A DNA stretch of 64,000 bases from an archaeon (GTDB lineage Archaea; Iainarchaeota; Iainarchaeia; Iainarchaeales; Iainarchaeaceae): positions 9,840-73,839 of the forward strand of contig DATDWP010000028.1 in the NCBI GenBank assembly GCA_035289625.1. The letters run 5' to 3'. This document shows positions 26,350 through 38,629 of the stretch, piece by piece. The notes below the pieces were generated by a model. It saw nothing but the letters and a program-made list of their open reading frames with translations, was not told the origin of the DNA and searched no databases. The position numbers and the translations under genes are program-made. Numbering within the stretch: position 1 is the stretch's first letter; each line of letters starts with the position of its first letter.

Positions 26350-29300
26350 TTAGAGCAAATCCTCAATATCTTTTGAAGCAGCATCCTTTGTATCCTCAAA
26401 ATCAACTGCCGCCTTTTCAAGTGTTGTCTCATGGCGCGAATCTTGCGAGAGCTTTTTTCTCACCTTGAAAAAAACAGGAAAGTTCACAGCTTCCCCGACA
26501 ATTAAAGCTTCGCCTGTTCGCATTGTAGTTATCATATCAAGGCTACGCTTATCTAGCCCTTCACTAGTTTTTCCAATATGGTCAAGATCGTAAGGGTTTG
26601 TCACGCGCAATATTATATGAGTGTTGCACTGGGAAAGGGCTGTTGTTGAAAGATTTATCGGGCGCTGGGAAATTAGACAAATTGTTGCCCCGAACTTTCT
26701 TCCCTCGCGTGCAATTGTTTCCAAAATCCCCCTGCTAATTGCACCCTCTTTTGAAACCTTTTCCGGGATGAATTGGTGCGCCTCTTCAAGAACCATTGTA
26801 AAGGGCGCGATTTTTTTGTTCTTTCTTTCATAAAATAATTTTGACGAAAAATACGCAACAATTATCTGCTTTTTTTTCATATCAACAATATCGCTAAGAT
26901 CAACAATTGTAAGCTGCCCAGGCCTTATCAGATCATTAATGCTCGGGCTGTCTGTTTTTGAAAATAACCCAAGCTGCTCAAGTGACATAATCCAACCAAC
27001 AAGTGATTGCTTTGTTGCTTCCTTCATCTCTGTGTCTTTGAAAATTTCCGATTTTACCGCGCTAAAATCAAATGGCCCGAGCCCTTCTTTCATTTCCCTT
27101 TTCAATTTTTCCAAAACGCGCGCAAGATCCCTTTTTTGCGGGGATGTGAGCCCGGGAATAATCGAAGCCAGCATTCCAATTGAGAGCTTTGGGACCCCTA
27201 TCTGAATTTCCGGGGCCCTAATATATCTTGTTTTTGAAGAAAAATCAGCATAGCGAGAATCTGTCGGGGGCTCAGCAAATGAACGGTACTCTCCGTGCGC
27301 GTCCATTACAATTACTGCAATTCTACCATCCTCTTTTTTTCGCGCAAGGAGCTCTTCAAATAAAACAGAAGTTAGATAGCTGTTGTGTACAATAATTTCA
27401 TTTGCTACAAAGTTTGAATTTTCAACTGAAATATCATAAACATATTTATAGGCGGGTTTTATTTTCTGTATGTCTTCTACTGTGTCAAAAAATACATTCA
27501 TTTCACAAAATTTTTTAACTACACTTATCCGTGCTCTTGCATTGATCAAGTTTTGGCTGGATTCTTGTGCAATTTTTTTAAGTGAATCTGCAAAAGACAG
27601 CACCAATGAATTGTCAGCTTGGCCTCTTCCTTTTGAATGGCTATAGAGAAATTGTTTGTAACACCCATTAGTTTTGCACAATCCCTCGGTTGAATAACCC
27701 AAAGACTCGCAAAAAGCCTTAATTTCAGAAAGAGCCTTGTTTCTATCATCAGAACACACCCTTTCAAGGCCATTTAAGTTCCCACCCTTTATCTTTAACA
27801 CATTTTTTGCAAGAATGAAAGTCGTATTTTTAGGGGATGTTATTTCCCGAACAACCCTTCTTGCAGTGGTGCTTGACACCCCACTACCGGCAGCAATTTG
27901 ATTAAAATCAAGACCCTCAGAATATGCAGTTTTTAGTATTTCAAGAGCGTTCTGCTCAGATATAGGAATCAATGTTTCAAATACTGAATTTATTTTTACC
28001 AATGTATTTTCAATCTCTTCTGCCCGTTTTTCAAAAAGCCCAATAAGCACTCTCAAACTTTCCCTCGAAGGATTATCCTTACGGTAAAGGTAATTATTTA
28101 TGCCTGAAGACTCTTTTTGCGGCTGTGGCATTCTTAGCAATGAAAGTATTTCCGCAAGATGCGTATGTGTATGCGGTACAACATCAATATTCGTGTTGGG
28201 TTTTGTATGAACCCATTTATCCAATGCGGATTTTTTGTAATCTATCAGCAGGTTTAAATCGTGCAATTTGCGTATTTCCCCCGAGCCACTCACTAAAACT
28301 CTCTGGTATTCTTCCCCATCCACTATTTTGACACTGCGAAGCGTTATGACCCCTAACTTCGTAAATATTTCCTCTACCCCATCAGCTAGCCTTTTGCCGG
28401 CAACTGTTACATCTAACTCTGATTTATCCGGGTTTACATACCCATCACAATCGATAAAAGCCGAGATAAAATTTTTTAGGACATTTTTTTCACTTTGGAG
28501 AATTTCATCCGGAATGAATTTTGTCCAACTTGATTTGGTAAAACCATAGCCATTTAGGCATCGTGCGAGGACAATAGAATCTATTAATAATTCCCCTTTG
28601 GATTTGGCCTTTTTCACCCTGAGAGCAAATTTTTCTTCACAAATATCGGTAAAGTCTTTTTGTATTAGCTGATTTTCATTCGAGAAATTCATCCTCGATT
28701 TAAGCGTATTATGGCCTTCGGCAATAAGGTAGGCCATAAGTCTTGCAAAGCGTTCATCAACAGAATATAAAAGTTTGGTCGAAATCTTCGACTGTTTTTG
28801 GATAGCATATCCATCTTCCATCTTAACCCCCTTGAATTTTGCAGCTGAAGCAGTGAAATCTATTTGGGACTTTTTCCCAACCCAATCTACTCTTGGCAAA
28901 AATACATAATCATTTACCGAAATATTTTGTGCTTCTTTCCATTCAATTGCCCCGTTAAATACAGGCACCAAATGTTCTGGCGTCACCTCAATTTCTTTTC
29001 CAGTCCTTGTTTTTATCCGAATGGCATTTTCCGGAGCCTTTCTCCTATAATACCCAAGTATTTTCCCCGGAACTACCTTATTGACAGACTCTGAAAGCGC
29101 ATACGCCCTCAAATCAAAATCCTCTTCCCAAAACTCTACTCCATTTTCAACTTTCTTATTTTTTTCCAACACAGAATCTACAATCCCACCAATGGTTTTC
29201 TGTGCGCTATTCTCAAGCAATATTTTCGTGTCAGGTTTTACACATTTACCGGCACCAGACATCGCCAAAATCGCAAGGTGCTTTTGGAAAAGGCGTGAAA

Positions 29301-29799
29301 GATTTAATTTTACCGAAACATCATGATGCTCAATTTCGCCTAGCATTAGCCCTTTTTGCAAATCAAGGCCTAGGAATTTTTCCAAAGTTGCCCTTACTGC
29401 TACGCGCACTTTTGTTCCGGGGGAAGGCGGAAAAGTTGCGCGCCTCATTCTGCCTTCATTATATACACCCAAAGGACGGGTTTTTGCAACCAAATATTCC
29501 CACTCATGAGCAGGAAATTGCTCGAATAATTTTTTTCCGGAAGATTCAAATTCTTTAACACTTTCAAATCTTTCAAAATACCTATTTGTTTTGAGAACAT
29601 CGCCGACAAGGCAAACCATTGTCCCTTCACTATAATCAAGCTCAACAAATTGGCCGCGATGAATTGAACCAGAATATACAACAAAATCCAGTGAACTTGG
29701 GGATGGGCCTTCCATACTGCTAACAACAGTTCCGATTTCACCCTCTTTTAATTGCGGCAGATTTTTTAGCTGCTCATCTGAAATCTGCGTTTCATTCAC
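26350..29799 (-). CDS. herA: HerA-like helicase/ATPase with an intein in the P-loop
   Basis: Exteins (185 + 343 aa) rejoin as ...LAILAMSGAGK|SYLTSVLFEELL (Walker A GAGKS); C-extein has a Walker B/HerA-like core; intein begins with Cys after GAGK and ends VHN|S. Confidence 0.8.
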   Translation of the reverse strand: MNETQISDEQLKNLPQLKEGEIGTVVSSMEGPSPSSLDFVVYSGSIHRGQFVELDYSEGTMVCLVGDVLKTNRYFERFESVKEFESSGKKLFEQFPAHEWEYLVAKTRPLGVYNEGRMRRATFPPSPGTKVRVAVRATLEKFLGLDLQKGLMLGEIEHHDVSVKLNLSRLFQKHLAILAMSGAGKCVKPDTKILLENSAQKTIGGIVDSVLEKNKKVENGVEFWEEDFDLRAYALSESVNKVVPGKILGYYRRKAPENAIRIKTRTGKEIEVTPEHLVPVFNGAIEWKEAQNISVNDYVFLPRVDWVGKKSQIDFTASAAKFKGVKMEDGYAIQKQSKISTKLLYSVDERFARLMAYLIAEGHNTLKSRMNFSNENQLIQKDFTDICEEKFALRVKKAKSKGELLIDSIVLARCLNGYGFTKSSWTKFIPDEILQSEKNVLKNFISAFIDCDGYVNPDKSELDVTVAGKRLADGVEEIFTKLGVITLRSVKIVDGEEYQRVLVSGSGEIRKLHDLNLLIDYKKSALDKWVHTKPNTNIDVVPHTHTHLAEILSLLRMPQPQKESSGINNYLYRKDNPSRESLRVLIGLFEKRAEEIENTLVKINSVFETLIPISEQNALEILKTAYSEGLDFNQIAAGSGVSSTTARRVVREITSPKNTTFILAKNVLKIKGGNLNGLERVCSDDRNKALSEIKAFCESLGYSTEGLCKTNGCYKQFLYSHSKGRGQADNSLVLSFADSLKKIAQESSQNLINARARISVVKKFCEMNVFFDTVEDIQKIKPAYKYVYDISVENSNFVANEIIVHNSYLTSVLFEELLARKKEDGRIAVIVMDAHGEYRSFAEPPTDSRYADFSSKTRYIRAPEIQIGVPKLSIGMLASIIPGLTSPQKRDLARVLEKLKREMKEGLGPFDFSAVKSEIFKDTEMKEATKQSLVGWIMSLEQLGLFSKTDSPSINDLIRPGQLTIVDLSDIVDMKKKQIIVAYFSSKLFYERKNKKIAPFTMVLEEAHQFIPEKVSKEGAISRGILETIAREGRKFGATICLISQRPINLSTTALSQCNTHIILRVTNPYDLDHIGKTSEGLDKRSLDMITTMRTGEALIVGEAVNFPVFFKVRKKLSQDSRHETTLEKAAVDFEDTKDAASKDIEDLL
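27382..29244 (-). mobile_element. intein (621 aa) with LAGLIDADG homing-endonuclease domain inside herA
   Basis: Block A Cys1 (GAGK|CVKPDTKILL); LAGLIDADG-like motifs LMAYLIAEGHN and ISAFIDCDGYV; C-terminal block EIIVHN followed by Ser+1. Confidence 0.75.
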
Positions 29800-31066: not shown

Positions 31067-32158
31067 TCAAAACGGCCTATTATCCCTTCGCATCCTCATT
31101 TTCACAGACGCCCCCAATTTATCCATAATTTTATTGTACACAATATCGATTTCGTTGTTATTTAGCTTTGCATGAAAATCGGCTTCAATTAGAACCGAAG
31201 GGTATGCGTACTCGCGATGCAAAGAGCTAAGGGCCGTTGCAACACTTGCAATCTCATCTGCTTTTTCAAAAAGCTCTGATTTATTATGGCAAATAAATTC
31301 GACACGAAGCGGCCTATCAAGAGCCGAGGGCTTTACATACAGCCCATAAATGCCCTCTGCCCATTGTGGATTAAAATCAACTAGCACGGGATGCTGTCGG
31401 ATATTTTTTGTATAAGTAAAAGCGCAACTGCGCTCGCCAACTTGCAGGAAATATTCCAAAAGAGAAGAATCAAAAATCCCATCAAGCTCTTCTTTTCTAA
31501 CACTGCCCATCTTTTCTACTACATTGTCTTGCAAAATCGACCGGAAGCGCGAACCTCTACTATCCTCAACAGTTGCAATAAGGGTAGTGTTGTGCTTTTG
31601 CGCCAAAGCATAGAGAGATTCAAACTCACTTATAATCCCGTGATAATTATCGGTTAGTTCGGATTCTTTTCTTGGCTTGTCCTGGTATTGTGGAACAATG
31701 CTCCCGTCAATAAAAAGATATTTCGGAGAGTACTCTTCAATTATTTTTTTTGAAACGCCAACTTCCTCTTTTAACCTCATAAGGCTCTTGCTCTGCTCGG
31801 CTTCATCATCCTCAAGTGATGCTCCTGCAAGATGGGGCTGCGGGAAATTAAAATAACCCGGATGGTATTTTGCGAGGACCACTTTCCCATCAGAATATTC
31901 AAACAAAACCCCCATTGCTCTAATCAGCACAAGATCAATTGTAGCAAGCCGCTTTGCAACAAAACCCGAATCAACCCCTGCAACAAGCCCATTTGGGATC
32001 CACTTTGAAATTGGAAATACAAGCTTTTTTTCAGCAAGTTCTGAAGAGGAAAAATCTAAATATTTTAGCGGCAAGAGGCGCTGCACCACAAATTTTCTGC
32101 GATTCTCCCCATTTGCTATGACATCAACAGTGTGGTCAATTATTGAAGAGATATTCAT
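31067..32158 (-). CDS. nurA: NurA-like nuclease
   Basis: N-terminal LVAGVDSGF motif resembling the NurA catalytic Asp motif; 363 aa; herA on the same strand. Confidence 0.6.
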   Translation of the reverse strand: MNISSIIDHTVDVIANGENRRKFVVQRLLPLKYLDFSSSELAEKKLVFPISKWIPNGLVAGVDSGFVAKRLATIDLVLIRAMGVLFEYSDGKVVLAKYHPGYFNFPQPHLAGASLEDDEAEQSKSLMRLKEEVGVSKKIIEEYSPKYLFIDGSIVPQYQDKPRKESELTDNYHGIISEFESLYALAQKHNTTLIATVEDSRGSRFRSILQDNVVEKMGSVRKEELDGIFDSSLLEYFLQVGERSCAFTYTKNIRQHPVLVDFNPQWAEGIYGLYVKPSALDRPLRVEFICHNKSELFEKADEIASVATALSSLHREYAYPSVLIEADFHAKLNNNEIDIVYNKIMDKLGASVKMRMRRDNRPF

Positions 32159-32254
32159 AATAACATCAATTCTTCGGAGTTTTTAAAACACCTATAGACC
32201 TCATTGCCGGTGCGGGCTCCAAAAACCATTAAATCAACCCAGTACCCAAAATAT

Positions 32255-32752
32255 AATATGGACAAAATGAAGAGCTACAAAGTTCATCCAAGTGTTCGCA
32301 TTGGCCACATACACCTAACTGTTTCAGATTTGGAAAATTCACTCAAATTCTACAGGGACATTTTAGGATTTGAAATAATGCAAAGATTCGATAGCGCTGC
32401 ATTTCTTTCAGCTGGAGGCTATCACCACCACATCGGCCTTAACACGTGGAATTCACCCGGCGCAAAAAAACCACAGGAAGGGCAAATTGGCCTCTACCAT
32501 TTTGCAATACTCTACCCAAATAGAAAAGAACTGGCAATTGCGCTCAAAAGATTGATAGAGGCAAATTACCCGCTAGAAGGAGCATCAGATCACGGAGTTT
32601 CAGAAGCAATTTACCTAAAAGATCCGGACGGCAATGGCATTGAACTCTATGCAGATAGGCCAAAATCCAAGTGGCCAAAGGAGAAGAAGGGGGAAATCAA
32701 AATGGCGACAATGCCACTTGATATTGAGGATCTACTAAAAGAGGCAAAATGA
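32255..32752 (+). CDS. VOC/glyoxalase-family protein (catechol 2,3-dioxygenase-like)
   Basis: IGHIHLTVSDLENSLKFYRDILGFEI and paired beta-alpha-beta-beta-beta modules with His/Glu ligands. Confidence 0.75.
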   Translation, partial: NMDKMKSYKVHPSVRIGHIHLTVSDLENSLKFYRDILGFEIMQRFDSAAFLSAGGYHHHIGLNTWNSPGAKKPQEGQIGLYHFAILYPNRKELAIALKRLIEANYPLEGASDHGVSEAIYLKDPDGNGIELYADRPKSKWPKEKKGEIKMATMPLDIEDLLKEAK

Positions 32753-32818
32753 GGAAAAATGGCTTAGTATATAGAAATAGTTAAGGTTTTTTAAACGGTT
32801 TTTAGTGGAAATAAGATC

Positions 32819-33538
32819 ATGTCAATATATCGATTCCTCGTGTATTCAGACGAGTCTATTCATGGAGTCAGACTTAGAAAATTAGTAAAGAAAGTAGCCG
32901 ATGAACTTACGCCGCCTATATTAGGAGAAACTCAGAATTTGGACGACGAACACGAAGTTGAAGTTCTATGCAGCGTTCAGGATAAAGCTCATCTTGCGAC
33001 CTTTGTTGCCATTATTATAAAATCAGCAAAAGAAATTGCAGATGTTGATGTGAAAATTGCACAGCCTTTAGAGGTAAATGATTTACATAAATATAAAAAT
33101 TTCAAAGATTTTAAGGTAATTCGTGGAGATGCTTTGAAAGAAATTGAATTGGAAATAGAAGGTGCTGAAAGGTTATTTAGAAAATTACAGGAAAATTTCG
33201 AAAAGTTTATTTTGAAAAGAGAAAATAATAAGTTGAAGGGGCTAGATTATCTATTGAAAACGATAGCCGGAAATTTAAAACCAGACGAACCGAAAGCCAA
33301 ATGGCATACCGCCAGAACTGCAATATCGGATTTTGTCGCTGAACCATTCGATGATGATTTGTTTCAATCGGTACAAGAAATAGACCAATTGTTGTATGAA
33401 TTAGCTGATTTTGAAGGCCAAGATATCAGTAAATTGCCAAAAGAACAAGTTGAAAAATTATTGCGACTAATAGACATTTCCCGTAAGAAAATCGCTGATT
33501 TGCACCGGCAGGAAGGTTCAAATATTATTATTAAGTAG
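32819..33538 (+). CDS. hypothetical protein, candidate toxin/effector partner of the Panacea-domain protein
   Basis: No motif; sits 39 nt upstream of the DUF4065 gene in an AT-rich island. Confidence 0.35.
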   Translation: MSIYRFLVYSDESIHGVRLRKLVKKVADELTPPILGETQNLDDEHEVEVLCSVQDKAHLATFVAIIIKSAKEIADVDVKIAQPLEVNDLHKYKNFKDFKVIRGDALKEIELEIEGAERLFRKLQENFEKFILKRENNKLKGLDYLLKTIAGNLKPDEPKAKWHTARTAISDFVAEPFDDDLFQSVQEIDQLLYELADFEGQDISKLPKEQVEKLLRLIDISRKKIADLHRQEGSNIIIK

Positions 33539-33576
33539 TTAATATAGAGTTCTAGAAGGTTGGTCGGTATTTTGGT

Positions 33577-34035
33577 ATGTCGGAAAATGTTACAGTTAAG
33601 GCAATTGATGCGTACGAATATATTTTTGGAAAATTAAGTTTAGGTAGTTTTAGCAGCCGCTTGATGTTCCAAAAAACAATTTATTTACTAAAATTATTTG
33701 GCGTTCCTAGTTTCCAAGATTTGTCTTATACTTGGTATAAAAGAGGCCCTTATTGTTTCGAGTTAGGCGGGATTTACAGTAAAAAATACCAAGAGAAATA
33801 CTATTTAGATGAAAAGGATGTTGAGTCTATCAAGAATTGTAAAAAAATAATTTTAGAGTTAATATCTGATGAAAAATACGGGGAACTAAATTCTTCAATA
33901 GCATATTTACTTCATGATGAAAAACTTTCTGATGAAGATATCATCAAACGAATGTTCTTAACAAAACCGTGGTTTGAAAAAGCAAACGTAGAATCTGCAT
34001 TGGTAAAATTAAAGCAACTTTTACGCCCTAATTAA
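33577..34035 (+). CDS. Panacea-domain (DUF4065, GepA/SocA-like) protein
   Basis: FQKTIYLLKLFGVPSFQDLSYTWYKRGPYCFEL matches the LQKLLY...G...F.AW..GP core of Panacea domains. Confidence 0.55.
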   Translation: MSENVTVKAIDAYEYIFGKLSLGSFSSRLMFQKTIYLLKLFGVPSFQDLSYTWYKRGPYCFELGGIYSKKYQEKYYLDEKDVESIKNCKKIILELISDEKYGELNSSIAYLLHDEKLSDEDIIKRMFLTKPWFEKANVESALVKLKQLLRPN

Positions 34036-34511
34036 ATTTACAATCTACCCTAATTCATTCAGTTCATGCATAATAACCACAATACGATAATAGAGAATTT
34101 TGAACAAGCATTCATTGATTTGTGCTGCTTTAGTTTTGCCTTTTAGCATACTGAAACTGAGTAGTAGCAGCCTAGACAAAAAAAGAAGCCTTACAACTAG
34201 GACAATGGCACTTGTTTTCCCTTTCTTGAGGGAACTTTACTCTCACGAACGTCTTGGTGATTACAATACGGACAAATCATTTCAATTCTTCCCAATCAAA
34301 TTCACATTCCATTCTATCACTAGTTATTATGTAACTGCAGAGTTTGCAACGCCACTCCACTAGATGAACGGACCCATCCCCCATATACTGAATTAGCTTT
34401 CTAACAGTTTTGAACTTCCCACCACAAGCACAGTAAAACTTTCAACCACTTATTTTAGGCACCTAATAAATATAAGCAAAGATTTAAATAATATAGGTAC
34501 CTAACAACATC

Positions 34512-34673
34512 ATGCGCCTACAAAAACAAATGTCAAGACGAGTAGGGGATGTGGAATATGCAAAATGGGTCGTAGTAATACCCCCAGAAATAGTTGAAAA
34601 AAGCAAATTAAAAGAAGGCCAAGAATTAGAAGCACACGTAGCCGAAGGAAAAATAACTCTAAAACCAAAATAA
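34512..34673 (+). CDS. 53-aa AbrB/SpoVT-like small regulator (not in the ORF track)
   Basis: Hand translation MRLQKQMSRRVGDVEYAKWVVVIPPEIVEKSKLKEGQELEAHVAEGKITLKPK; swapped-hairpin-like V.IP.EI...L.EG.E; palindromes sit directly upstream. Confidence 0.45.
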   Translation: MRLQKQMSRRVGDVEYAKWVVVIPPEIVEKSKLKEGQELEAHVAEGKITLKPK

Positions 34674-35624
34674 CTATTTTAGAGATTTTTTCAAACTATC
34701 AAAACTTTTCTTAAAATTAGCCACAATCTTTTTTGTTTTTGGAAACGATAAGTTCCCGTCATTTTCTAATTTTACTAGATATTTTTTAAATTCATTTTCC
34801 TCTTCAACACTTCTATTTGTTTTACTAACCAATTTTAAAAAAGCGTCATTGGTTTTTGGCACATATAAGATTTGCACCCCTTCACCTACATAATTGTCAA
34901 TTTTTGATTCCTCAATATAATTTATTATAAAACAACCTAATTTTGCCATTTCTTCCATGGTAATTTCATCACTCCACATCGCCTTTAGAAAAGTCTGTGC
35001 ATATGGCGAACCACTACCTATTGCCAAAAAAGTTTTTCTTTTACTATCTAAACAATCAGCAATCTCTAATTTATGTAACTCAGCCTCGCGCCCTGAACGA
35101 AAAGCAATTAAAAGTTGCAATCCATTTGGATATTTTTCCATTATATCTTTGTATTGATTTTTCATTTGAAATAAAATCCCTTCACAATCTTCAACAAACT
35201 GATTTGCATAAGCATATGGACTAATTATCGCATCCAACTCTTCTTGAGTTATTTTTGGATTCTGCTCCTGCATTTGTTTTTTTATTTGTTTTTTCCTTTC
35301 TTCTAAGTTAATGAAAACACGAGCTAAAAATTTATCAAATAATTCAGAAATTCCAGCCCCGCTGAACCCTACGCCCAAAGCATCTACCAAGTAAATTTTA
35401 GGATGTGAAGCAATATCTACACCCTCAACTACTTTTTTGTCGGAAATTATTACTACTCCGTCTTTACAATTTGCCCCTATTACTAATGTCATTTTTTCGC
35501 CATTTTGAGGTTTGTTTTTTAACATTTTCGGCACTTTCTGATAAGTAAGCAAAAACGAAACTATAAATTGTCTTTGATTGCTTATCGGTGTTGACACACC
35601 AAAAAAGTACCTAATTTTAGGCAC
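34674..35624 (-). CDS. HslV/proteasome-beta-like Ntn-hydrolase with an internal insertion and C-terminal extension
   Basis: MTLVIGANCKDGVVIISDKKV...LGVGFSGAGIS and AIGSGSPYAQ match HslV/20S beta motifs (Thr1, Lys33-like, GSG); true start probably internal (MTLVIG near 35492). Confidence 0.55.
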   Translation of the reverse strand: MPKIRYFFGVSTPISNQRQFIVSFLLTYQKVPKMLKNKPQNGEKMTLVIGANCKDGVVIISDKKVVEGVDIASHPKIYLVDALGVGFSGAGISELFDKFLARVFINLEERKKQIKKQMQEQNPKITQEELDAIISPYAYANQFVEDCEGILFQMKNQYKDIMEKYPNGLQLLIAFRSGREAELHKLEIADCLDSKRKTFLAIGSGSPYAQTFLKAMWSDEITMEEMAKLGCFIINYIEESKIDNYVGEGVQILYVPKTNDAFLKLVSKTNRSVEEENEFKKYLVKLENDGNLSFPKTKKIVANFKKSFDSLKKSLK

Positions 35625-35643
35625 CTAAAAGAATAAAAGGGAG

Positions 35644-35922
35644 ATGGTAATGGATTTAGAAGAAGTTAGAAATTTTTTACTCGAAGTAAATAGTTTCTTG
35701 GCTATATTTATATTAACAAAAGACACCGTACCCATTCTTTCTAATAATTGGGAACAAAACATATTTCCTCTAATAACATATGCACTTATTTTAGGAGGAC
35801 TGTCATTTTTAATTGCAAAGTTTATTAAAAACACATTAGCCGGAGATAGAGTTTATGCTCAAGTTATAGCACATATTTTTTTGTTAATTCTATTTACTCA
35901 ATTGCTGACACCTAAATTATAA
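35644..35922 (+). CDS. small membrane protein, hypothetical
   Basis: Three hydrophobic helices. Confidence 0.3.
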   Translation: MVMDLEEVRNFLLEVNSFLAIFILTKDTVPILSNNWEQNIFPLITYALILGGLSFLIAKFIKNTLAGDRVYAQVIAHIFLLILFTQLLTPKL

Positions 35923-35959
35923 TTTGATTAACCACTAGTACAAGAAAATTTTTTTCCGA

Positions 35960-36391
35960 TTATTTTTCAACATATATTTCATCTTGGTTTGGTTTTTTGT
36001 GAATTTTTGCAAAAATAAAACCAATAGCATACGTTATCATTATTATTGATGCGATTAATCCTACCAAAATATTCTGCCATGACTCACCATGCGCCCAATA
36101 AGCATTTCTACCAGCTTTCAATGCAAAATAATACATTGGCCACGTCGCAATCACAATTAGGACATAAGTAATTACTGAGACCGTATTAAAATCGAGAAAA
36201 GCTAAGTAGGGGCTATTAATAAAATTACCCGATACAAAAGCTATTAGAACCCACAAACCCGCCCATAAATATTGTCCAAAAAAATAGATAAGGGCACGTT
36301 TAGTATAATTAAACTGTTTAAACAATTCCATGAGAGCCACATTATTCCAATAAATCCAGATTTTAGCCAATTTGGCTAAATTCTTTACCAT
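35960..36391 (-). CDS. polytopic membrane protein, hypothetical
   Basis: Hydrophobic helices; no motif. Confidence 0.35.
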   Translation of the reverse strand: MVKNLAKLAKIWIYWNNVALMELFKQFNYTKRALIYFFGQYLWAGLWVLIAFVSGNFINSPYLAFLDFNTVSVITYVLIVIATWPMYYFALKAGRNAYWAHGESWQNILVGLIASIIMITYAIGFIFAKIHKKPNQDEIYVEK

Positions 36392-36682
36392 TAAAGAGGC
36401 TTAAAATTATTAAGCTTAGTTATATGCAAATAGGCAAACATAAACCGCTTTTCAGGCTTAAAATAACCGGAGTTAAAACAAATAAATCCAAAAACCTCGA
36501 TCAATTCTACAGCGAACTCGTAGACCTATTAAGAGCTAAAGAATAACCAATTCCGACTTTTTACACAAAACCGACTTATTACACAGCGCTACATAAAAAA
36601 GCGTTGTGTAAATAAGGTTCAAAATTGACGACTTTCTACACAAAAAGCAGACTTTTTACACAGATTACTCCATGATTATTCT

Positions 36683-37435
36683 ATGGGTTTTTACCGAGAC
36701 TTCACGGGAGGATCTTTAGACCCTCCTTCTTCTGGTAGAAGATCTCCAAGAAGAGATGATTGGCACAGACATGACAATTATAGGCCAAGAAGGAAAAATT
36801 ACTTTGAAATGTTGAAGGTTCCTGTAATTTTACTTATTGTTCTGGGTGTATTCTTTTACTTAGCTAATAATGGAGATGCAACATACAACGAAACAATCCC
36901 AAAAATTAATAATGATTTTAATAAAATGGTGCAGGATTTTTTCAAAAATACATTTCCGCCTTCGGAACCTATTGCCGATAAAACCAAAGAGGTTGAGAGA
37001 TTAATATTTTATTACACAAACCAAGAAAGACAAAAGTATGGTGTTTCGTTACTGAGTTGGAATGACAGTTTAGCAGATATTGCACGCGAACATAGTCTTG
37101 ACATGGCCACCAATAATTTCTTTGAACATGATAATCCGAGAGGTGAAGATCCAACTGCAAGAGCGCGTAGACACGGATTTCCAGTTGAAGTGCAATTAAG
37201 TAAAAATGTAACTCAAGTTGGAATAGCTGAAAATATTGGCATGATGCCAACAGGAAACGTACAAGGAATTGGTAGAGTGGGTTCAGATGCCGACAGTGTA
37301 GCTTATGCACATGTCAAATCATGGATGGAAAGTCCTGGCCACAGAACTAATATACTTGACCCAAGCTCTCATATAATAGGAGTTGGAGTTGCCTATTCGG
37401 ATGGGTATTATTATGCAACTCAAGATTTCCAATAG
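36683..37435 (+). CDS. CAP/SCP/PR-1 domain secreted protein
   Basis: TM/signal then GHRTNILDPSSHIIGVGVA and HYTNQ motifs of CAP domains. Confidence 0.6.
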   Translation: MGFYRDFTGGSLDPPSSGRRSPRRDDWHRHDNYRPRRKNYFEMLKVPVILLIVLGVFFYLANNGDATYNETIPKINNDFNKMVQDFFKNTFPPSEPIADKTKEVERLIFYYTNQERQKYGVSLLSWNDSLADIAREHSLDMATNNFFEHDNPRGEDPTARARRHGFPVEVQLSKNVTQVGIAENIGMMPTGNVQGIGRVGSDADSVAYAHVKSWMESPGHRTNILDPSSHIIGVGVAYSDGYYYATQDFQ

Positions 37436-37526
37436 CACAGAAAAAGATTACTTTTTACACAAAACCTACTTATTACACAACGCTACATAAAAAGGAAAAT
37501 ATTTATACTCGCGTGCACTTACTCAT

Positions 37527-37889
37527 TTGATGAAATCACTTTTCGAAGTAAAAACCATAGAAAGCGACTGGAAACCGCCTTTTAAGAAAAACACTTACAC
37601 AAACGAATTTGCAGCTGACCAGGGAGAGGCATTTGATAGAATCACCGGAAACGGCAATGACGAACCCATATTTGAAATACTTGAAAGTGCGGGCGATAGG
37701 GTAAAGGTTCGCTACAGCAGGCTTTTTACAATAAAAGAACCAGACGAGAGATGCGGCAAAGACAAAACAGTCTGGCTCATCCGCGGAATGGAACAGCCCC
37801 TTAGCTATTTATGGGGAGAAAAAGGAGTTACAAAAAAAATAACATTCAAAGGAATAGTAACCCCGGAACCTAGCACGCAGGGCGAATAA
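37527..37889 (+). CDS. hypothetical protein
   Basis: ORF only. Confidence 0.3.
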   Translation: MMKSLFEVKTIESDWKPPFKKNTYTNEFAADQGEAFDRITGNGNDEPIFEILESAGDRVKVRYSRLFTIKEPDERCGKDKTVWLIRGMEQPLSYLWGEKGVTKKITFKGIVTPEPSTQGE

Positions 37890-37921
37890 CAATTTAATTC
37901 ATTGCAAGCCCTCTCATTTTT

Positions 37922-38629
37922 ATGACACAAAAGCTCTACTTGCAAGACGCATACCTAAAAGAGTGCGAAGCCATCGTTACAAAAGCTGACGGAAAATTTG
38001 TAGTACTTGATAGGACTATTTTTTATGCCCAAAGCGGCGGGCAGCCAACCGATACTGGCAAGATCACTTCCCAAAACGGCAAAGAGTACAAGGTAGTATT
38101 TGCAAAAAATATTGGAGAAGATGTTTCACACGAAGTTGATTCTGAAGGCTTAAAGGCAGGGGAGAGTGTGAAGTGCTCTCTTGACTGGCAGAGAAGATAC
38201 ACACACATGAAAATGCACACTTCAGCTCATCTCTTAGCAGCATGCATTATGAAAGAAACAGGAGCATTAATTACCGGAAACCAGCTTGATGAAAAACAAT
38301 CACGAATGGATTTTGATGTAGCTGATTTTGACAAGGAACTTTTGAAGAGCTTTGAACAAAAAGTAAACGAGGCAGTAGAACAAAATATGAAAATCGGCAT
38401 CTCTTTTATGAAAAGGGAAGATGCACTAGCAAACCCAACCCTATTTCGCCTCAAAAGCGTTCTGCCAAAAGACATTCCCATCTTGCGAATTGTTGCAATA
38501 GGCGAATTTGATATCCAAGCAGATGGAGGCACACATGTCGCTAGCACAAAAGAAATCGGAAAATTCAAAATAGTGGACTTCAAAAACAAGGGAGCGCAAA
38601 ACCGCAGGGTTTACTGGGAGCTGGAATAG
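37922..38629 (+). CDS. alaX: AlaX-type aminoacyl-tRNA editing deacylase
   Basis: HTSAHLL zinc-binding motif and C-terminal GGTHV motif. Confidence 0.8.
   Translation: MTQKLYLQDAYLKECEAIVTKADGKFVVLDRTIFYAQSGGQPTDTGKITSQNGKEYKVVFAKNIGEDVSHEVDSEGLKAGESVKCSLDWQRRYTHMKMHTSAHLLAACIMKETGALITGNQLDEKQSRMDFDVADFDKELLKSFEQKVNEAVEQNMKIGISFMKREDALANPTLFRLKSVLPKDIPILRIVAIGEFDIQADGGTHVASTKEIGKFKIVDFKNKGAQNRRVYWELE

What the first reader, a model, noticed from the sequence alone, without database searches (positions are those of the whole stretch)
36556..37493. CAP-domain secreted protein gene flanked by 44-nt direct repeats
ACTTTTTACACAAAACC(G/T)ACTTATTACACA(G/A)CGCTACATAAAAA occurs at 36556-36599 and 37450-37493 with 2 mismatches. 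A partial third copy (ACTTTTTACACAG) lies at 36644-36656. The copies bracket the 250-aa CAP/SCP gene (36683-37435). This is compatible with a mobilised cassette, a duplication scar, or a reiterated promoter/operator element shared with the next gene (37527). CAP-domain proteins are rare in archaea.
Basis: seen in the sequence. Interest (0 to 1): 0.55.

Follow-up and report, generated by a model that had tools for sequence, protein, structure and literature searches.

The report
Transposon cassette carrying a CAP gene
The 44-base repeat is the end of a small transposase-less jumping-gene cassette plus its 9-base insertion footprint; the cassette carries the CAP gene and belongs to a large, unnamed archaeal family related to the bacterial insertion sequence IS903 that tends to insert right in front of gene promoters.

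Summary
The 44-nt repeat is real: 36556-36599 and 37450-37493, 2 mismatches, none in shuffles. It is not a promoter element or a simple duplication. Each copy is a 35-nt transposon end followed by a 9-bp target-site duplication (TSD), ACATAAAAA.

The CAP gene (36683-37435) is the only cargo of an 885-bp element without a transposase (36600-37484). This element has perfect 12-nt terminal inverted repeats and phased 12-mers, ACTT(T/A)(T/C)TACACA.

A genome scan with the paired 12-mer returned 120 loci, 102 of them archaeal. Twenty further elements there (66 bp to 6.5 kb) have perfect 9-bp TSDs. About 25 of the loci encode a ~400-aa DDE transposase. Its closest bacterial relative is IS903 (ends GGCTTTGT..., 9-bp TSD).

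The upstream 44-mer copy is the right end of an older, decayed element (~33996-36590). That element keeps a 33-aa transposase relic. Both elements used the same 9-mer, just upstream of the TATA box of the next gene.

Across the family, a TATA-like box starts exactly 7 nt after the TSD in 21 of 72 ends.

Two related genomes lack the whole ~5.3-kb island that holds both elements.

The local object is an ordinary kind of thing. The family's end architecture and its promoter-adjacent insertion look undescribed.

The parts
36556..36590 (+). Right end of the older element A (RE-A). It has two direct 12-mers (36556-36567 and 36574-36585, 18 nt apart) and the terminal GCGCT. It makes up the first 35 nt of 44-mer copy 1.
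   Evidence: It is 33/35 identical to RE-B. Its register (18-nt spacing, 17-nt terminal unit) is the same as in the family ends. Its best matches are ends in L061 and L028.
36591..36599 (.). Target-site duplication, left copy (ACATAAAAA). These are the last 9 nt of 44-mer copy 1.
   Evidence: these are the only two ACATAAAAA in the 64 kb, and they directly abut the two termini of element B.
36600..37484 (+). Element B: an 885-bp cargo-carrying transposable element without a transposase (mobile-insertion-cassette type) of the archaeal IS903-like family.
   Evidence: found by the same rule that found 20 other elements with a perfect TSD; I11 (12-nt perfect terminal inverted repeat AGCGTTGTGTAA / TTACACAACGCT); (12-mers at offsets 31, 51, 850, 868).
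36600..36662 (+). Left end of B (LE-B). It has the inverted terminal copy AGCGTTGTGTAAATAAG (36600-36616) and direct 12-mers at 36631-36642 and 36651-36662.
   Evidence: The offsets 31 and 51 from the terminus are identical to those in family elements such as L111, L096, L032 and L090.
36683..37435 (+). Cargo gene: a 250-aa protein with an N-terminal cytoplasmic tail, one hydrophobic helix (VPVILLIVLGVFFYLA) and a C-terminal CAP/YkwD domain.
   Evidence: ORF; PF00188, E 3e-23; TIGR02909 YkwD family, below cutoff; archaeal homologues at 45-62% identity. The membrane topology is read from the sequence and was not computed.
37450..37484 (+). Right end of B (RE-B). It has direct 12-mers at 37450-37461 and 37468-37479 and the terminal ACGCT. 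It makes up the first 35 nt of 44-mer copy 2.
   Evidence: It is 30/31 identical to an end in L028.
37485..37493 (.). Target-site duplication, right copy (ACATAAAAA).
37494..37508 (+). Promoter of the next gene. GGAAAA is purine-rich and resembles a BRE (TFB-recognition element), and TATTTATAC resembles a TATA box about 27 nt before ATG 37530. This is the family's usual kind of target context.
   Evidence: Read from the sequence. Orthologous promoters in L147 and L150 have a TATA box at the same distance from the ATG. Family-wide flank consensus. This site itself scores below my 7/8 threshold (6/8 at offset 18).
37530..37889 (+). 119-aa gene of unknown function, native to this position. Relatives have an orthologue here.
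   Evidence: 57-58% identity to the proteins that lie between NurA and AlaX in L147 and L150.
33996..34045 (+). Decayed left end of element A, with indels in the terminal copy and in two 12-mers.
   Evidence: the local alignment to the left end plus transposase 3' end of L032 runs continuously through this stretch (score 87). This is an inference from one alignment.
34045..34179 (-). Relic of the transposase C-terminus. Residues aligned at 34048-34146 read ...AQINECLFKILYYRIVVIMHELNELG*.
   Evidence: 40-67% identity to the extreme C-terminus of at least 20 family transposases. Its orientation and its position next to the left end are as in L032.
33996..36590 (+). Element A: an older, decayed member of the family. 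It contains the left-end relic, the transposase relic, a MazE-like ORF (34512-34673), a divergent proteasome-like ORF (34674-35624, minus strand), small membrane ORFs and RE-A.
   Evidence: G+C 0.324 against 0.397 for the rest of the window. The left TSD could not be verified.
32215..37493 (.). Lineage-specific island of about 5.3 kb between NurA (31067-32158, minus strand) and the 119-aa gene. Related genomes lack it.
   Evidence: L147 (AlaX 80% identical) has 157 bp between NurA and the orthologue of the 119-aa gene, and L150/L151 (70%) have about 400 bp. G+C of the island is 0.341.

Best explanation
Main claim. The CAP gene is the passenger of a transposable element that has no transposase of its own (element B, 36600-37484). 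The element belongs to a large archaeal transposon family distantly related to IS903 (IS5 family).

How it would move (inferred). A transposase supplied from elsewhere is inferred to bind the phased 12-mers ACTT(T/A)(T/C)TACACA. One copy lies in each terminal inverted repeat, and further copies lie 18-20 nt apart inside the ends. The transposase would pair the two ends, cut the element out, and insert it with a 9-bp staggered cut in the target. Repair of that cut produces the duplicated ACATAAAAA.

What each 44-mer is. Each copy is a 35-nt right end followed by the 9-bp duplication. The downstream copy is B's own right end. The upstream copy is the right end of an older family member (element A, about 33996-36590). 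Element A still carries a decayed left end and a 33-aa transposase relic.

Order of events (inferred). Element A inserted first into ACATAAAAA, immediately upstream of the BRE/TATA promoter of the 119-aa gene. Element B later inserted into the same 9-mer in the same orientation, because the family prefers a 9-bp target that lies 7 nt upstream of a TATA box. The result reads RE(A)-TSD-[LE(B)-CAP-RE(B)]-TSD-promoter.

Shown by tool results: the anatomy of the ends, the TSDs, family membership of the ends, the transposase relic, the absence of the island from relatives, and the position of the TATA box next to family ends.

Inferred, not tested: transposase binding to the 12-mers, cut-and-paste chemistry, the order of events, and the cause of the target preference.
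For: Anatomy of element B
- A 12-nt perfect terminal inverted repeat lies at 36600-36611 / 37473-37484 (I11).
- The identical 9-mer ACATAAAAA abuts both termini. These are its only two occurrences in the 64 kb.
- The two terminal positions that differ from the family consensus (GGCT -> AGCG) are changed at both ends, so the inverted repeat stays perfect.

The family
By record title, 102 are archaeal, from many phyla.
- With one fixed rule (4 nt + TTGTGTA ... TACACAA + 4 nt, flanked by identical 9-mers), 20 other elements have a perfect 9/9 TSD, all at the same offset.
- Their sizes are 66/68, 86, 106/108, 442, 2299, 2616, 3575, 5409 and 6506 bp.
- B's 12-mers lie at offsets 31 and 51 from the left terminus. 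The last two are 18 nt apart. Both features match the family.

The transposase
- The long elements, and about 25 loci in all, encode a ~400-aa protein with PF01609 DDE_Tnp_1 (E 1e-15 to 1e-21).
- Its best NCBIfam model is NF033579, at 137 bits. The same model is best for IS903B, at 356 bits.
- The IS903B copy read here has ends GGCTTTGTTGAATAAATC and a 9-bp TSD. The archaeal consensus end is GGCTTTGTGTAAAAAGT.
- A sister subfamily (L170) has the same architecture and a perfect 9-bp TSD, but a different 12-mer core, CGGGCA. That fits ends co-evolving with their transposase.

Element A
- A transposase C-terminal relic lies at 34048-34146 on the minus strand.
- The alignment to L032 continues from the relic into a decayed left end.
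- Similarity between the two 44-mers begins exactly at the innermost 12-mer.

Target preference
- In 72 non-redundant ends, an 8-mer matching TTTAWAWA at 7 or more of 8 positions starts at offset 16 after the terminus in 21, and at offset 18 in 7.
- Offsets 15 and 17 have 1 and 2. At offsets 14-20 together, 25/72 have one, against 3.9% at random positions in the same loci.
- Of 19 validated elements outside the window, 13 have such a box at offset 14-18 on one flank, next to either end; 12 of them at exactly offset 16.
- An ORF of at least 50 aa starts 20-60 nt after the TATA box in 15/32 ends, against 17/84 without a box.
- The window reads TSD-GGAAAA-TATTTATAC, then 21 nt, then ATG.

Insertion status
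- Two relatives have NurA, then 157-400 bp, then the orthologue of the 119-aa gene, then AlaX. They lack the 5.3-kb island.
- The island is G+C-poor: 0.34 against 0.40.
Against: - No intact transposase lies in the 64-kb window. Whether element B can still move is unknown.
- No empty site specific to B was found. All the contigs of this population that span the site carry it, with the 1149 bp around it identical or differing at 2 bases.
- The relatives that lack the island are only 70-80% identical in AlaX. They show that the island is an insertion, not that B inserted on its own.
- The left TSD of element A could not be verified. The 9-mer before the decayed left end matches ACATAAAAA at only 6/9 at best.
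- The left end of A rests on one alignment with several indels.
- The window's TATA box scores below my 7/8 threshold: 6/8 at offset 18.
- The target preference could owe something to selection on where insertions survive.
Counts are therefore samples, not a census.
- Binding of the transposase to the 12-mers is untested.
Confidence: 0.85

Rival explanations
1. Tandem duplication scar. Element B plus its TSD was duplicated head to tail, by unequal crossing-over or as a transposon dimer. Most of the left copy was then deleted, leaving only its right end and TSD. The upstream 44-mer would then be a remnant of B itself, not of a separate element A.
For: The two 44-mers are 42/44 identical and in the same orientation. 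Abutted right-end / spacer / left-end junctions are what tandem dimers give. This junction forms a 16-pair hairpin with dG -11.2 kcal/mol and z -4.4.
Against: Similarity stops exactly at the innermost 12-mer. The 14 nt before it (AATAACCAATTCCG against CACAGAAAAAGATT) are unrelated. A deletion would have had to end precisely at the boundary of the element end.

Upstream in the correct orientation lie a transposase relic and a decayed left end. These supply an independent owner for this right end.

The family's target preference predicts repeated use of the same 9-mer. A comparable stack that shares one 9-mer is seen in L117.
Confidence: 0.07
2. Operator array. The 12-mers are binding sites of a host transcription factor, or of a domesticated transposase DNA-binding domain, that co-regulates the CAP gene and the 119-aa gene. 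Their transposon origin would be secondary. This does not exclude the main explanation.
For: Arrays of 2-4 phased sites lie just upstream of both genes. The copy at 36651-36662 (CTTTTTACA) lies about 29 nt before the CAP ATG, the distance expected for a TATA box of a leaderless mRNA. Across the family the arrays sit at a fixed distance from promoters.
Against: The sites come with inverted termini and TSDs, and they occur next to unrelated genes in many phyla. CAP homologues elsewhere have no such motif. No intact family transposase or obvious regulator lies in the window. In other cargo elements the cargo gene has the opposite orientation relative to the ends (L044). There are no expression data.
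Confidence: 0.1
3. Site-specific recombination cassette. The 44-mers are attL/attR-like sites of an integrase-mobilised or integron-like gene cassette.
For: Direct repeats flank a single promoter-proximal gene.
Against: No tyrosine or serine recombinase lies in or beside the unit. The element has terminal inverted repeats and a 9-bp duplication whose sequence differs at every insertion in the family. That is the signature of DDE transposition, not of att recombination. The associated enzyme is a DDE transposase.
Confidence: 0.02

Closest known systems
IS903 / IS903B (IS5 family, IS903 group)
   Same: Both have a DDE_Tnp_1 transposase with the D, D and E residues aligned: IDSTG, D(G/K)AY, RSxAE(T)...K. 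The best NCBIfam model is the same, NF033579. Both have ends that begin GGCTTTGT and a 9-bp target-site duplication, read directly in L144 for IS903B and in 21 archaeal elements.
   Different: - Identity is only about 25% over the catalytic core, and the score lies just below the NCBIfam cutoff (137 and 117 against 140).
- The archaeal transposase is about 400 aa, against 307-322 aa. It has an extra N-terminal region with a weak SWIM-type zinc-finger match.
- The archaeal ends carry 2-5 phased 12-mers, arranged asymmetrically at the two ends. The IS903B copy read here shows none.
- Archaeal members often carry cargo (restriction-modification genes, secreted proteins) and have 66-108-bp miniature derivatives.
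- The window element has no transposase at all.
Mobile insertion cassettes (MICs, e.g. MIC231 of IS231) and 'transporter' insertion sequences with passenger genes
   Same: Both are insertion-sequence ends that flank one or a few passenger genes with no transposase inside. They are presumed to be mobilised by a related transposase supplied from elsewhere. PMC3129680 describes these, with MITEs and solo inverted repeats, as recognised derivatives of insertion sequences.
   Different: The classical MICs are bacterial and derive from IS231 (IS4 family) or Tn3. This one is archaeal, IS903-like, has multi-site ends and carries a CAP-domain gene. Mobilisation has not been shown here.
MITEs (miniature inverted-repeat transposable elements)
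   Same: The family includes non-coding derivatives of 66-108 bp with inverted termini and 9-bp TSDs. Element B's ends add up to the 106-bp type, with 787 bp holding the CAP gene in place of the central 8-nt spacer.
   Different: Element B is 885 bp and coding, so it is not itself a MITE. The miniature elements here differ in size by steps of 20 nt, which reflect the number of 12-mer units.
Transposons with several transposase-binding sites per end (Tn7, phage Mu, Tn5053) - from my own knowledge, not tested here
   Same: They have several phased, asymmetrically arranged binding sites in each end. Tn7 also selects its target site specifically.
   Different: They use a different transposase superfamily branch, make 5-bp duplications and need accessory proteins. 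No such proteins are seen here.
Promoter- or transcription-complex-targeted eukaryotic elements (Ty3, Tf1, P element) - an analogy from my own knowledge
   Same: They insert at a fixed or preferred distance from promoter elements and so avoid coding sequence.
   Different: They are retroelements or an unrelated DNA transposon, and they are tethered through known host factors. For the archaeal family only the positional statistic is shown. The mechanism is unknown.

Membership tests
IS5 family, IS903 group (family level, archaeal elements) | DDE transposase of the DDE_Tnp_1 type | tested here: met
   PF01609 at E 8.5e-17, 1.3e-15 and 3.4e-21 for the proteins of L090, L032 and L104. The D, D and E residues align with IS903B.
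IS5 family, IS903 group (family level, archaeal elements) | Transposase passes NCBI's IS5 equivalog model (NF033579, the model that IS903B hits best) | tested here: inconclusive
   NF033579 is the best model for both archaeal proteins tested, but at 136.9 and 117.5 bits against a cutoff of 140. IS903B scores 356 bits. NCBI names these proteins only 'transposase'.
IS5 family, IS903 group (family level, archaeal elements) | Terminal inverted repeats beginning GGC(TTTGT) | tested here: met
   The family consensus is GGCTTTGTGTAAAAAGT. IS903B reads GGCTTTGTTGAATAAATC. The window element has the variant AGCGTTGTGTAA at both ends.
IS5 family, IS903 group (family level, archaeal elements) | 9-bp target-site duplication | tested here: met
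   21 elements, including the window's, have perfect 9/9 duplications at one fixed offset, as does L170. The IS903B copy has ATAAAAAAA.
IS5 family, IS903 group (family level, archaeal elements) | Simple insertion sequence of about 1 kb with a single transposase gene and simple inverted repeats | tested here: not met
   The autonomous members found are 3.6-6.5 kb with cargo. Their ends carry phased 12-mer arrays.
Mobile insertion cassette (transposase-less, passenger-carrying derivative of an insertion sequence) - window element B | Insertion-sequence-type inverted termini and a TSD flank the unit | tested here: met
   I11.
Mobile insertion cassette (transposase-less, passenger-carrying derivative of an insertion sequence) - window element B | No transposase inside; one or more passenger genes | tested here: met
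   The only ORF that fills 36663-37449 is the CAP gene. tblastn finds no transposase similarity inside it.
Mobile insertion cassette (transposase-less, passenger-carrying derivative of an insertion sequence) - window element B | A cognate transposase is present in the same genome | not testable with these tools
   Only 64 kb of the genome is available, and it holds only a 33-aa relic. Intact transposases of a sister subfamily occur in another archaeon from the same samples.
Mobile insertion cassette (transposase-less, passenger-carrying derivative of an insertion sequence) - window element B | Presence/absence polymorphism (an empty site) | tested here: inconclusive
   All contigs of the same population that span the site carry the element. 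More distant relatives lack the whole 5.3-kb island.
MITE | Short (under a few hundred bp) and non-coding, with inverted termini and a TSD | tested here: not met
   Element B is 885 bp and encodes a 250-aa protein. Relatives of 66-108 bp do meet the definition.
CAP/SCP superfamily (cargo protein) | CAP domain (PF00188) above the gathering score | tested here: met
   83.3 bits against 21.1, residues 110-249. The YkwD-type match TIGR02909 scores 68.7 bits against a cutoff of 171, so that subfamily is not met.
Integron or integrase-type gene cassette | Site-specific recombinase and a conserved attachment core | tested here: not met
   No recombinase gene lies nearby. The flanking 9-mers differ at every family insertion.

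The most novel reading that the evidence does not exclude
This archaeal IS903-like family homes to promoters. It inserts into the 9 bp that end 7 nt upstream of a TATA box, across the BRE, in either orientation.

One possible reason is that its end-binding domain recognises promoter-like DNA. The 12-mer ACTTTATACACA itself resembles a BRE/TATA sequence such as GCTTTATATA. Another possibility is that it reads the TBP/TFB-bound promoter.

Repeated hits on the same site would stack elements and their cargo genes (restriction-modification systems, secreted proteins such as this CAP protein) into islands immediately upstream of host genes, without disrupting coding sequence. That would be the first promoter-tethered DNA transposon described in archaea. 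It would also give a route by which small DPANN-type genomes acquire surface and defence genes.
Probability: 0.4. Interest if true: 0.75.

Novelty: new variant of a known kind. Interest (0 to 1): 0.58.

Why it matters
Locally, this explains how an archaeon with a small genome gained a membrane-anchored CAP-domain surface protein. The archaeon comes from groundwater samples, and its closest named relatives are Diapherotrites. The gene rode in as the sole cargo of a transposase-less transposon cassette, inside a 5.3-kb island that related genomes lack.

More broadly, a 12-mer seen in one window led to a very large transposon family. At least 6700 transposase clusters score E <= 1e-20, and they are labelled only 'transposase'.

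The family spans Woesearchaeota, Pacearchaeota, Nanoarchaeota, Micrarchaeota, Aenigmarchaeota, Methanosarcinales, Methanoperedens, Thermoplasmatota, Bathyarchaeota, Hydrothermarchaeales and Nitrososphaera.

It has an unusual end architecture and miniature derivatives whose sizes differ in steps of 20 nt. It often carries defence or surface-protein cargo. Its insertions sit at a sharply fixed position next to TATA boxes.

If the promoter targeting is mechanistic, it is directly testable in vitro. It would bear on archaeal promoter architecture, on gene flow among DPANN archaea, and on genome annotation, because these ends could be mistaken for regulatory motifs, as nearly happened here.

Tried and rejected
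- Operator or regulon motif (my first idea). I dropped it once the contexts showed inverted termini and 9-bp duplications next to unrelated genes.
- Origin-recognition boxes, iterons or a CRISPR-like array. I considered these for the 20-nt tandem arrays such as L006. The arrays are bounded by family termini, so I rejected them.
- CAP homologues as cargo elsewhere. The loci of the three closest CAP homologues (P0002, P0003, P0005; L133-L143) contain no 12-mer. The gene is ordinary chromosomal cargo-free DNA in those genomes.
- Empty site within the same population. Look-ups of the CAP, 119-aa and 143-aa proteins returned only filled sites.
- Metagenome scan with the 119-aa protein. It found only two distant relatives with no shared gene order.
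- More transposase remnants in 33000-37000. A low-stringency tblastn found only the 33-aa C-terminal piece.
- A left end at the left border of the island (about 32215). None was found.
- Rfam over 33500-38000: no match at E <= 1.
- Viral contigs: 8 pattern hits, all unrelated tandem repeats.
- Literature. Four full-text searches and three papers checked found no description of this family or of its promoter-adjacent insertion. Filee et al. 2007 on archaeal insertion sequences is not held, so prior description in ISfinder or that review cannot be excluded.
- Extra insertion sites through multi-contig transposases (P0250, P0302). Each turned out to be one locus seen in many samples. L160 showed no recognisable ends.
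Full report
**1. The observation**

The 44-mer is present at 36556-36599 and 37450-37493 with two mismatches. No match at up to 3 mismatches appeared in 100 shuffles. It brackets a 250-aa ORF (36683-37435) with a CAP domain (PF00188, E 3e-23).

The repeat has internal structure. It is built from a 12-mer, ACTT(T/A)(T/C)TACACA. Direct copies lie at 36556, 36574, 36631, 36651, 37450 and 37468.

A fourth direct copy at 36631 and an inverted copy at 36600-36616 were missed.

**2. What the 12-mer is**

I scanned one genome per species (GTDB) for two 12-mers 5-9 nt apart. By record title, 102 of the 120 are archaeal, from many phyla.

The contexts show a recurring unit:
- a 9-nt flank;
- GGCTTTGTGTA(A/T)AAAGT;
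- about 14 nt of spacer;
- two to five direct copies of (G)ACTTTnTACACA;
- a last copy extended to ...ACACAAAGCC;
- the same 9-nt flank again.

I then applied one fixed rule: 4 nt + TTGTGTA ... TACACAA + 4 nt, flanked by identical 9-mers.
- It found 21 distinct elements with perfect 9/9 duplications, all at the same offset.
- Their sizes are 66/68, 86, 106/108, 442, 885, 2299, 2616, 3575, 5409 and 6506 bp.
- The 885-bp element is the window's, at 36600-37484, with the duplication ACATAAAAA.
- That 9-mer occurs only twice in the 64 kb, and both copies abut the termini.

The window element also fits the family in detail:
- It has a perfect 12-nt terminal inverted repeat, AGCGTTGTGTAA / TTACACAACGCT (I11).
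- Its two departures from the family consensus (GGCT to AGCG) are mirrored at both ends.
- Its 12-mers lie at offsets 31 and 51 from the left terminus, and the last two are 18 nt apart. This is exactly the family register.
- Across 333 sites the spacing is 18 nt (75 times) or 20 nt (99 times).

Each 44-mer is therefore a 35-nt right end plus the 9-bp target-site duplication.

**3. The enzyme and the known family**

The three longest validated elements (L032, L090, L104) each encode a ~400-aa protein with a DDE_Tnp_1 domain and a weak N-terminal SWIM zinc-finger match. tblastn finds this protein in about 25 of the loci that were recovered by DNA motif alone.

Links to IS903:
- The best NCBIfam model is NF033579 (IS5 family), at 137 and 117 bits against a cutoff of 140.
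- The IS903B transposase hits the same model best, at 356 bits.
- The best plasmid matches are IS903B and IS17, at 23-28% identity.
- In an IS903B copy I read the ends GGCTTTGTTGAATAAATC and a 9-bp duplication, ATAAAAAAA.

The archaeal family thus shares the terminal GGCTTTGT, the 9-bp duplication and the catalytic core with the IS903 group. It differs in four ways: phased multi-site ends, a longer N-terminus, cargo genes, and miniature derivatives whose sizes step by 20 nt.

The transposase family is large. At least 6701 clusters score E <= 1e-20, and sources name them only 'transposase'.

A sister subfamily occurs in a Woesearchaeota genome from the same aquifer samples (L170). It has the same architecture and a perfect 9-bp duplication, GCTGCGAGT, but a different 12-mer core, CGGGCA. 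This fits 12-mers that are transposase-binding sites co-evolving with the enzyme. That reading is an inference.

Other transposase-less cargo elements exist in the family:
- L044, 2299 bp, carries a PQQ/PKD secreted protein.
- L036, 2616 bp, carries a Schlafen/AlbA_2 protein between two miniature elements.

**4. The upstream 44-mer copy**

The window holds a 33-aa relic of the transposase C-terminus at 34048-34146 on the minus strand. It is 40-67% identical to the C-termini of at least 20 family transposases.

An alignment with the left end and transposase 3' end of L032 runs on through 33997-34045. It identifies a decayed terminal copy and two decayed 12-mers. The transposase's orientation, and its position next to the left end, are as in L032.

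I therefore read about 33996-36590 as an older element A, whose right end is the first 35 nt of the upstream 44-mer.

Similarity between the two 44-mers starts exactly at the innermost 12-mer, and the preceding 14 nt are unrelated. This argues against a duplication of element B. The left duplication of A could not be verified.

**5. Why the two elements abut**

In 72 non-redundant multi-copy ends, an 8-mer matching TTTAWAWA at 7 or more of 8 positions starts at offset 16 after the terminus in 21. Offset 16 is 7 nt after the 9-bp duplication. It starts at offset 18 in 7 more.

Offsets 15 and 17 have 1 and 2. At offsets 14-20 together, 25/72 ends have such a box, against 3.9% at random positions of the same loci.

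The flank consensus is N9, then R-A-A-A-N-N, then TTTAWAWA. That is a BRE-like purine run and a TATA box reading away from the element.

Further support:
- Of 19 validated elements outside the window, 13 have such a box at offset 14-18 on one flank, next to either end.
- An ORF of at least 50 aa starts 20-60 nt after the box in 15/32 ends, mostly at 28-31 nt. Without a box the figure is 17/84.
- L170, which was found through its protein and not through the motif, shows the same layout.

In the window the right flank reads ACATAAAAA-GGAAAA-TATTTATAC, then 21 nt, then ATG 37530. This is the same layout with the box shifted by 2 nt, and it scores below my threshold.

The simplest account is that A and then B inserted into the same 9-mer in front of the promoter of the 119-aa gene. 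After the first insertion the right-hand copy of the 9-mer still lies next to the promoter, so it remains a good target. A comparable stack that shares one 9-mer is seen in L117.

The statistic does not say why the insertions sit there. Direct recognition, tethering to TBP/TFB, or selective retention are all possible.

**6. Insertion status**

All the contigs of this population that span the site carry element B. The 1149 bp around it are identical in four contigs and differ at 2 bases in a fifth.

I found the closest relatives through the AlaX protein. L147 (80% identity) and L150/L151 (70%) have NurA, then 157-400 bp, then an orthologue of the 119-aa protein (57-58% identity), then AlaX.

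The window has about 5.3 kb more between NurA (31067-32158) and 37530. This island has G+C 0.34 against 0.40 elsewhere. Element A is the lowest, at 0.32.

The island, including the CAP cassette, is therefore a lineage-specific insertion. The separate insertion of B is inferred from its intact termini and duplication.

**7. The cargo**

The protein has a 44-residue N-terminal tail, one hydrophobic helix and a C-terminal CAP/YkwD-type domain. I read this topology from the sequence; it was not computed. The protein is therefore probably membrane-anchored with the CAP domain outside the cell, not freely secreted.

Homologues at 45-62% identity occur in Woesearchaeota, Methanosarcinales, Methanomicrobia and ANME-1. 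Many of them have an N-terminal AN1 zinc finger. Their loci show no transposon ends.

**8. Verdict**

The object is a new archaeal example of a known kind: a transposase-less, passenger-carrying derivative of an insertion sequence (PMC3129680). It belongs to an IS903-like family. The family's multi-site ends and promoter-adjacent insertion I could not find described. One key review is not held.

No known RNA family matches the region, and the motif is not found in viral contigs.

**Limits**
- Only 64 kb of the genome is available, and it has no intact transposase.
- No empty site specific to B was found.
- The family survey is a capped sample, selected by a two-12-mer pattern.
- Some 'bacterial' records may be mis-binned contigs.
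- All mechanistic steps are inferred from anatomy.

Noticed in passing
Family loci L004-L123; window 37485-37508: Family insertions lie at a fixed distance from archaeal promoters. A TATA-like 8-mer starts exactly 7 nt after the 9-bp duplication in 21 of 72 ends, next to either end of the element. Whether this reflects targeting or survival of insertions is open.
   Followed up: partly
window 32215-33995: The left third of the island that relatives lack holds a glyoxalase/FosA-like gene (32258-32752), a 239-aa ORF with a weak acylphosphatase match (32819-33538) and a 152-aa ORF (33577-34035). The 3' end of the 152-aa ORF runs into the decayed left end of element A. No transposon end was found at the island's left border, so its origin is unexplained.
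   Followed up: partly
window 34674-35624 (minus strand) and 34512-34673: Inside the decayed element A lie a 316-aa protein that matches proteasome subunits only weakly (Pfam E 5e-13; far below the NCBIfam cutoffs) and an adjacent 53-aa MazE/AbrB-like ORF. A divergent proteasome-like protein as transposon cargo is odd. I did not study it.
   Followed up: no
window 26350-29799 (minus strand): The HerA-like ATPase (DUF87) is 1149 aa and carries an intein with a LAGLIDADG domain. The orthologue is 852 aa in L147 and 1133 aa with an intein in L150. The intein is therefore present in some relatives and absent in others.
   Followed up: no
L170 2168-6688 (also L171-L174): A sister transposon subfamily occurs in a Woesearchaeota genome from the same aquifer samples. 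It has the same end architecture and a 9-bp duplication (GCTGCGAGT), but its 12-mer core is CGGGCA instead of TACACA. Its cargo is an N6-methyltransferase/specificity fusion and a MazE-like gene.
   Followed up: partly
L036 2671-5286 (reverse strand coordinates): This is a composite arrangement. Two complete miniature elements, each with its own different inner flank, bracket a Schlafen/AlbA_2-HATPase gene. The outer flanks share the 9-mer CATTGATGG, as if the pair moved as one unit.
   Followed up: partly
L006 754-880; also L092, L093, L034, L084, L108: Methanosarcinaceae copies show expanded runs of up to six or more 20-nt units. They are repeatedly followed by the same flank, CTACACTACGGGATTTGGG..., so they appear nested in another repeated sequence. 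The same flank occurs in contigs binned as Anaerolineales, Neomarinimicrobiota and 'bacterium', which suggests mis-binned archaeal contigs.
   Followed up: no
L047 (binned as Saccharibacteria), L053 (Saccharimonadales): Family transposase sequence occurs on contigs assigned to CPR bacteria: about 52% identity over most of its length in L047, and a 30-32-aa C-terminal fragment in L053. This is either transfer between episymbiont-type lineages or a binning error.
   Followed up: no
L020 (Synergistaceae), L155 and L152-L159 (viral contigs), L011/L029 (Haliscomenobacter): These are pattern hits that do not belong to the family. They are simple 17-18-nt tandem repeats that happen to contain ACTTnnTACACA, without family termini or duplications.
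   Followed up: yes
window 36579-36611: The abutted right end of A and left end of B form a 16-pair hairpin with the 9-nt duplication as its loop (DNA dG -11.2 kcal/mol, z -4.4). In some bacterial insertion-sequence families, abutted ends are hyperactive transposition substrates. That is from my own knowledge, and whether it applies here is unknown.
   Followed up: partly
L131 (ERZ27254845) against window 36566 and 37271: Only two differences were seen among five contigs of the population across 1149 bp. One lies in a 12-mer of the orphan right end (36566 C>A) and one in the CAP gene (37271 G>T). None lies in the ends of element B.
   Followed up: yes
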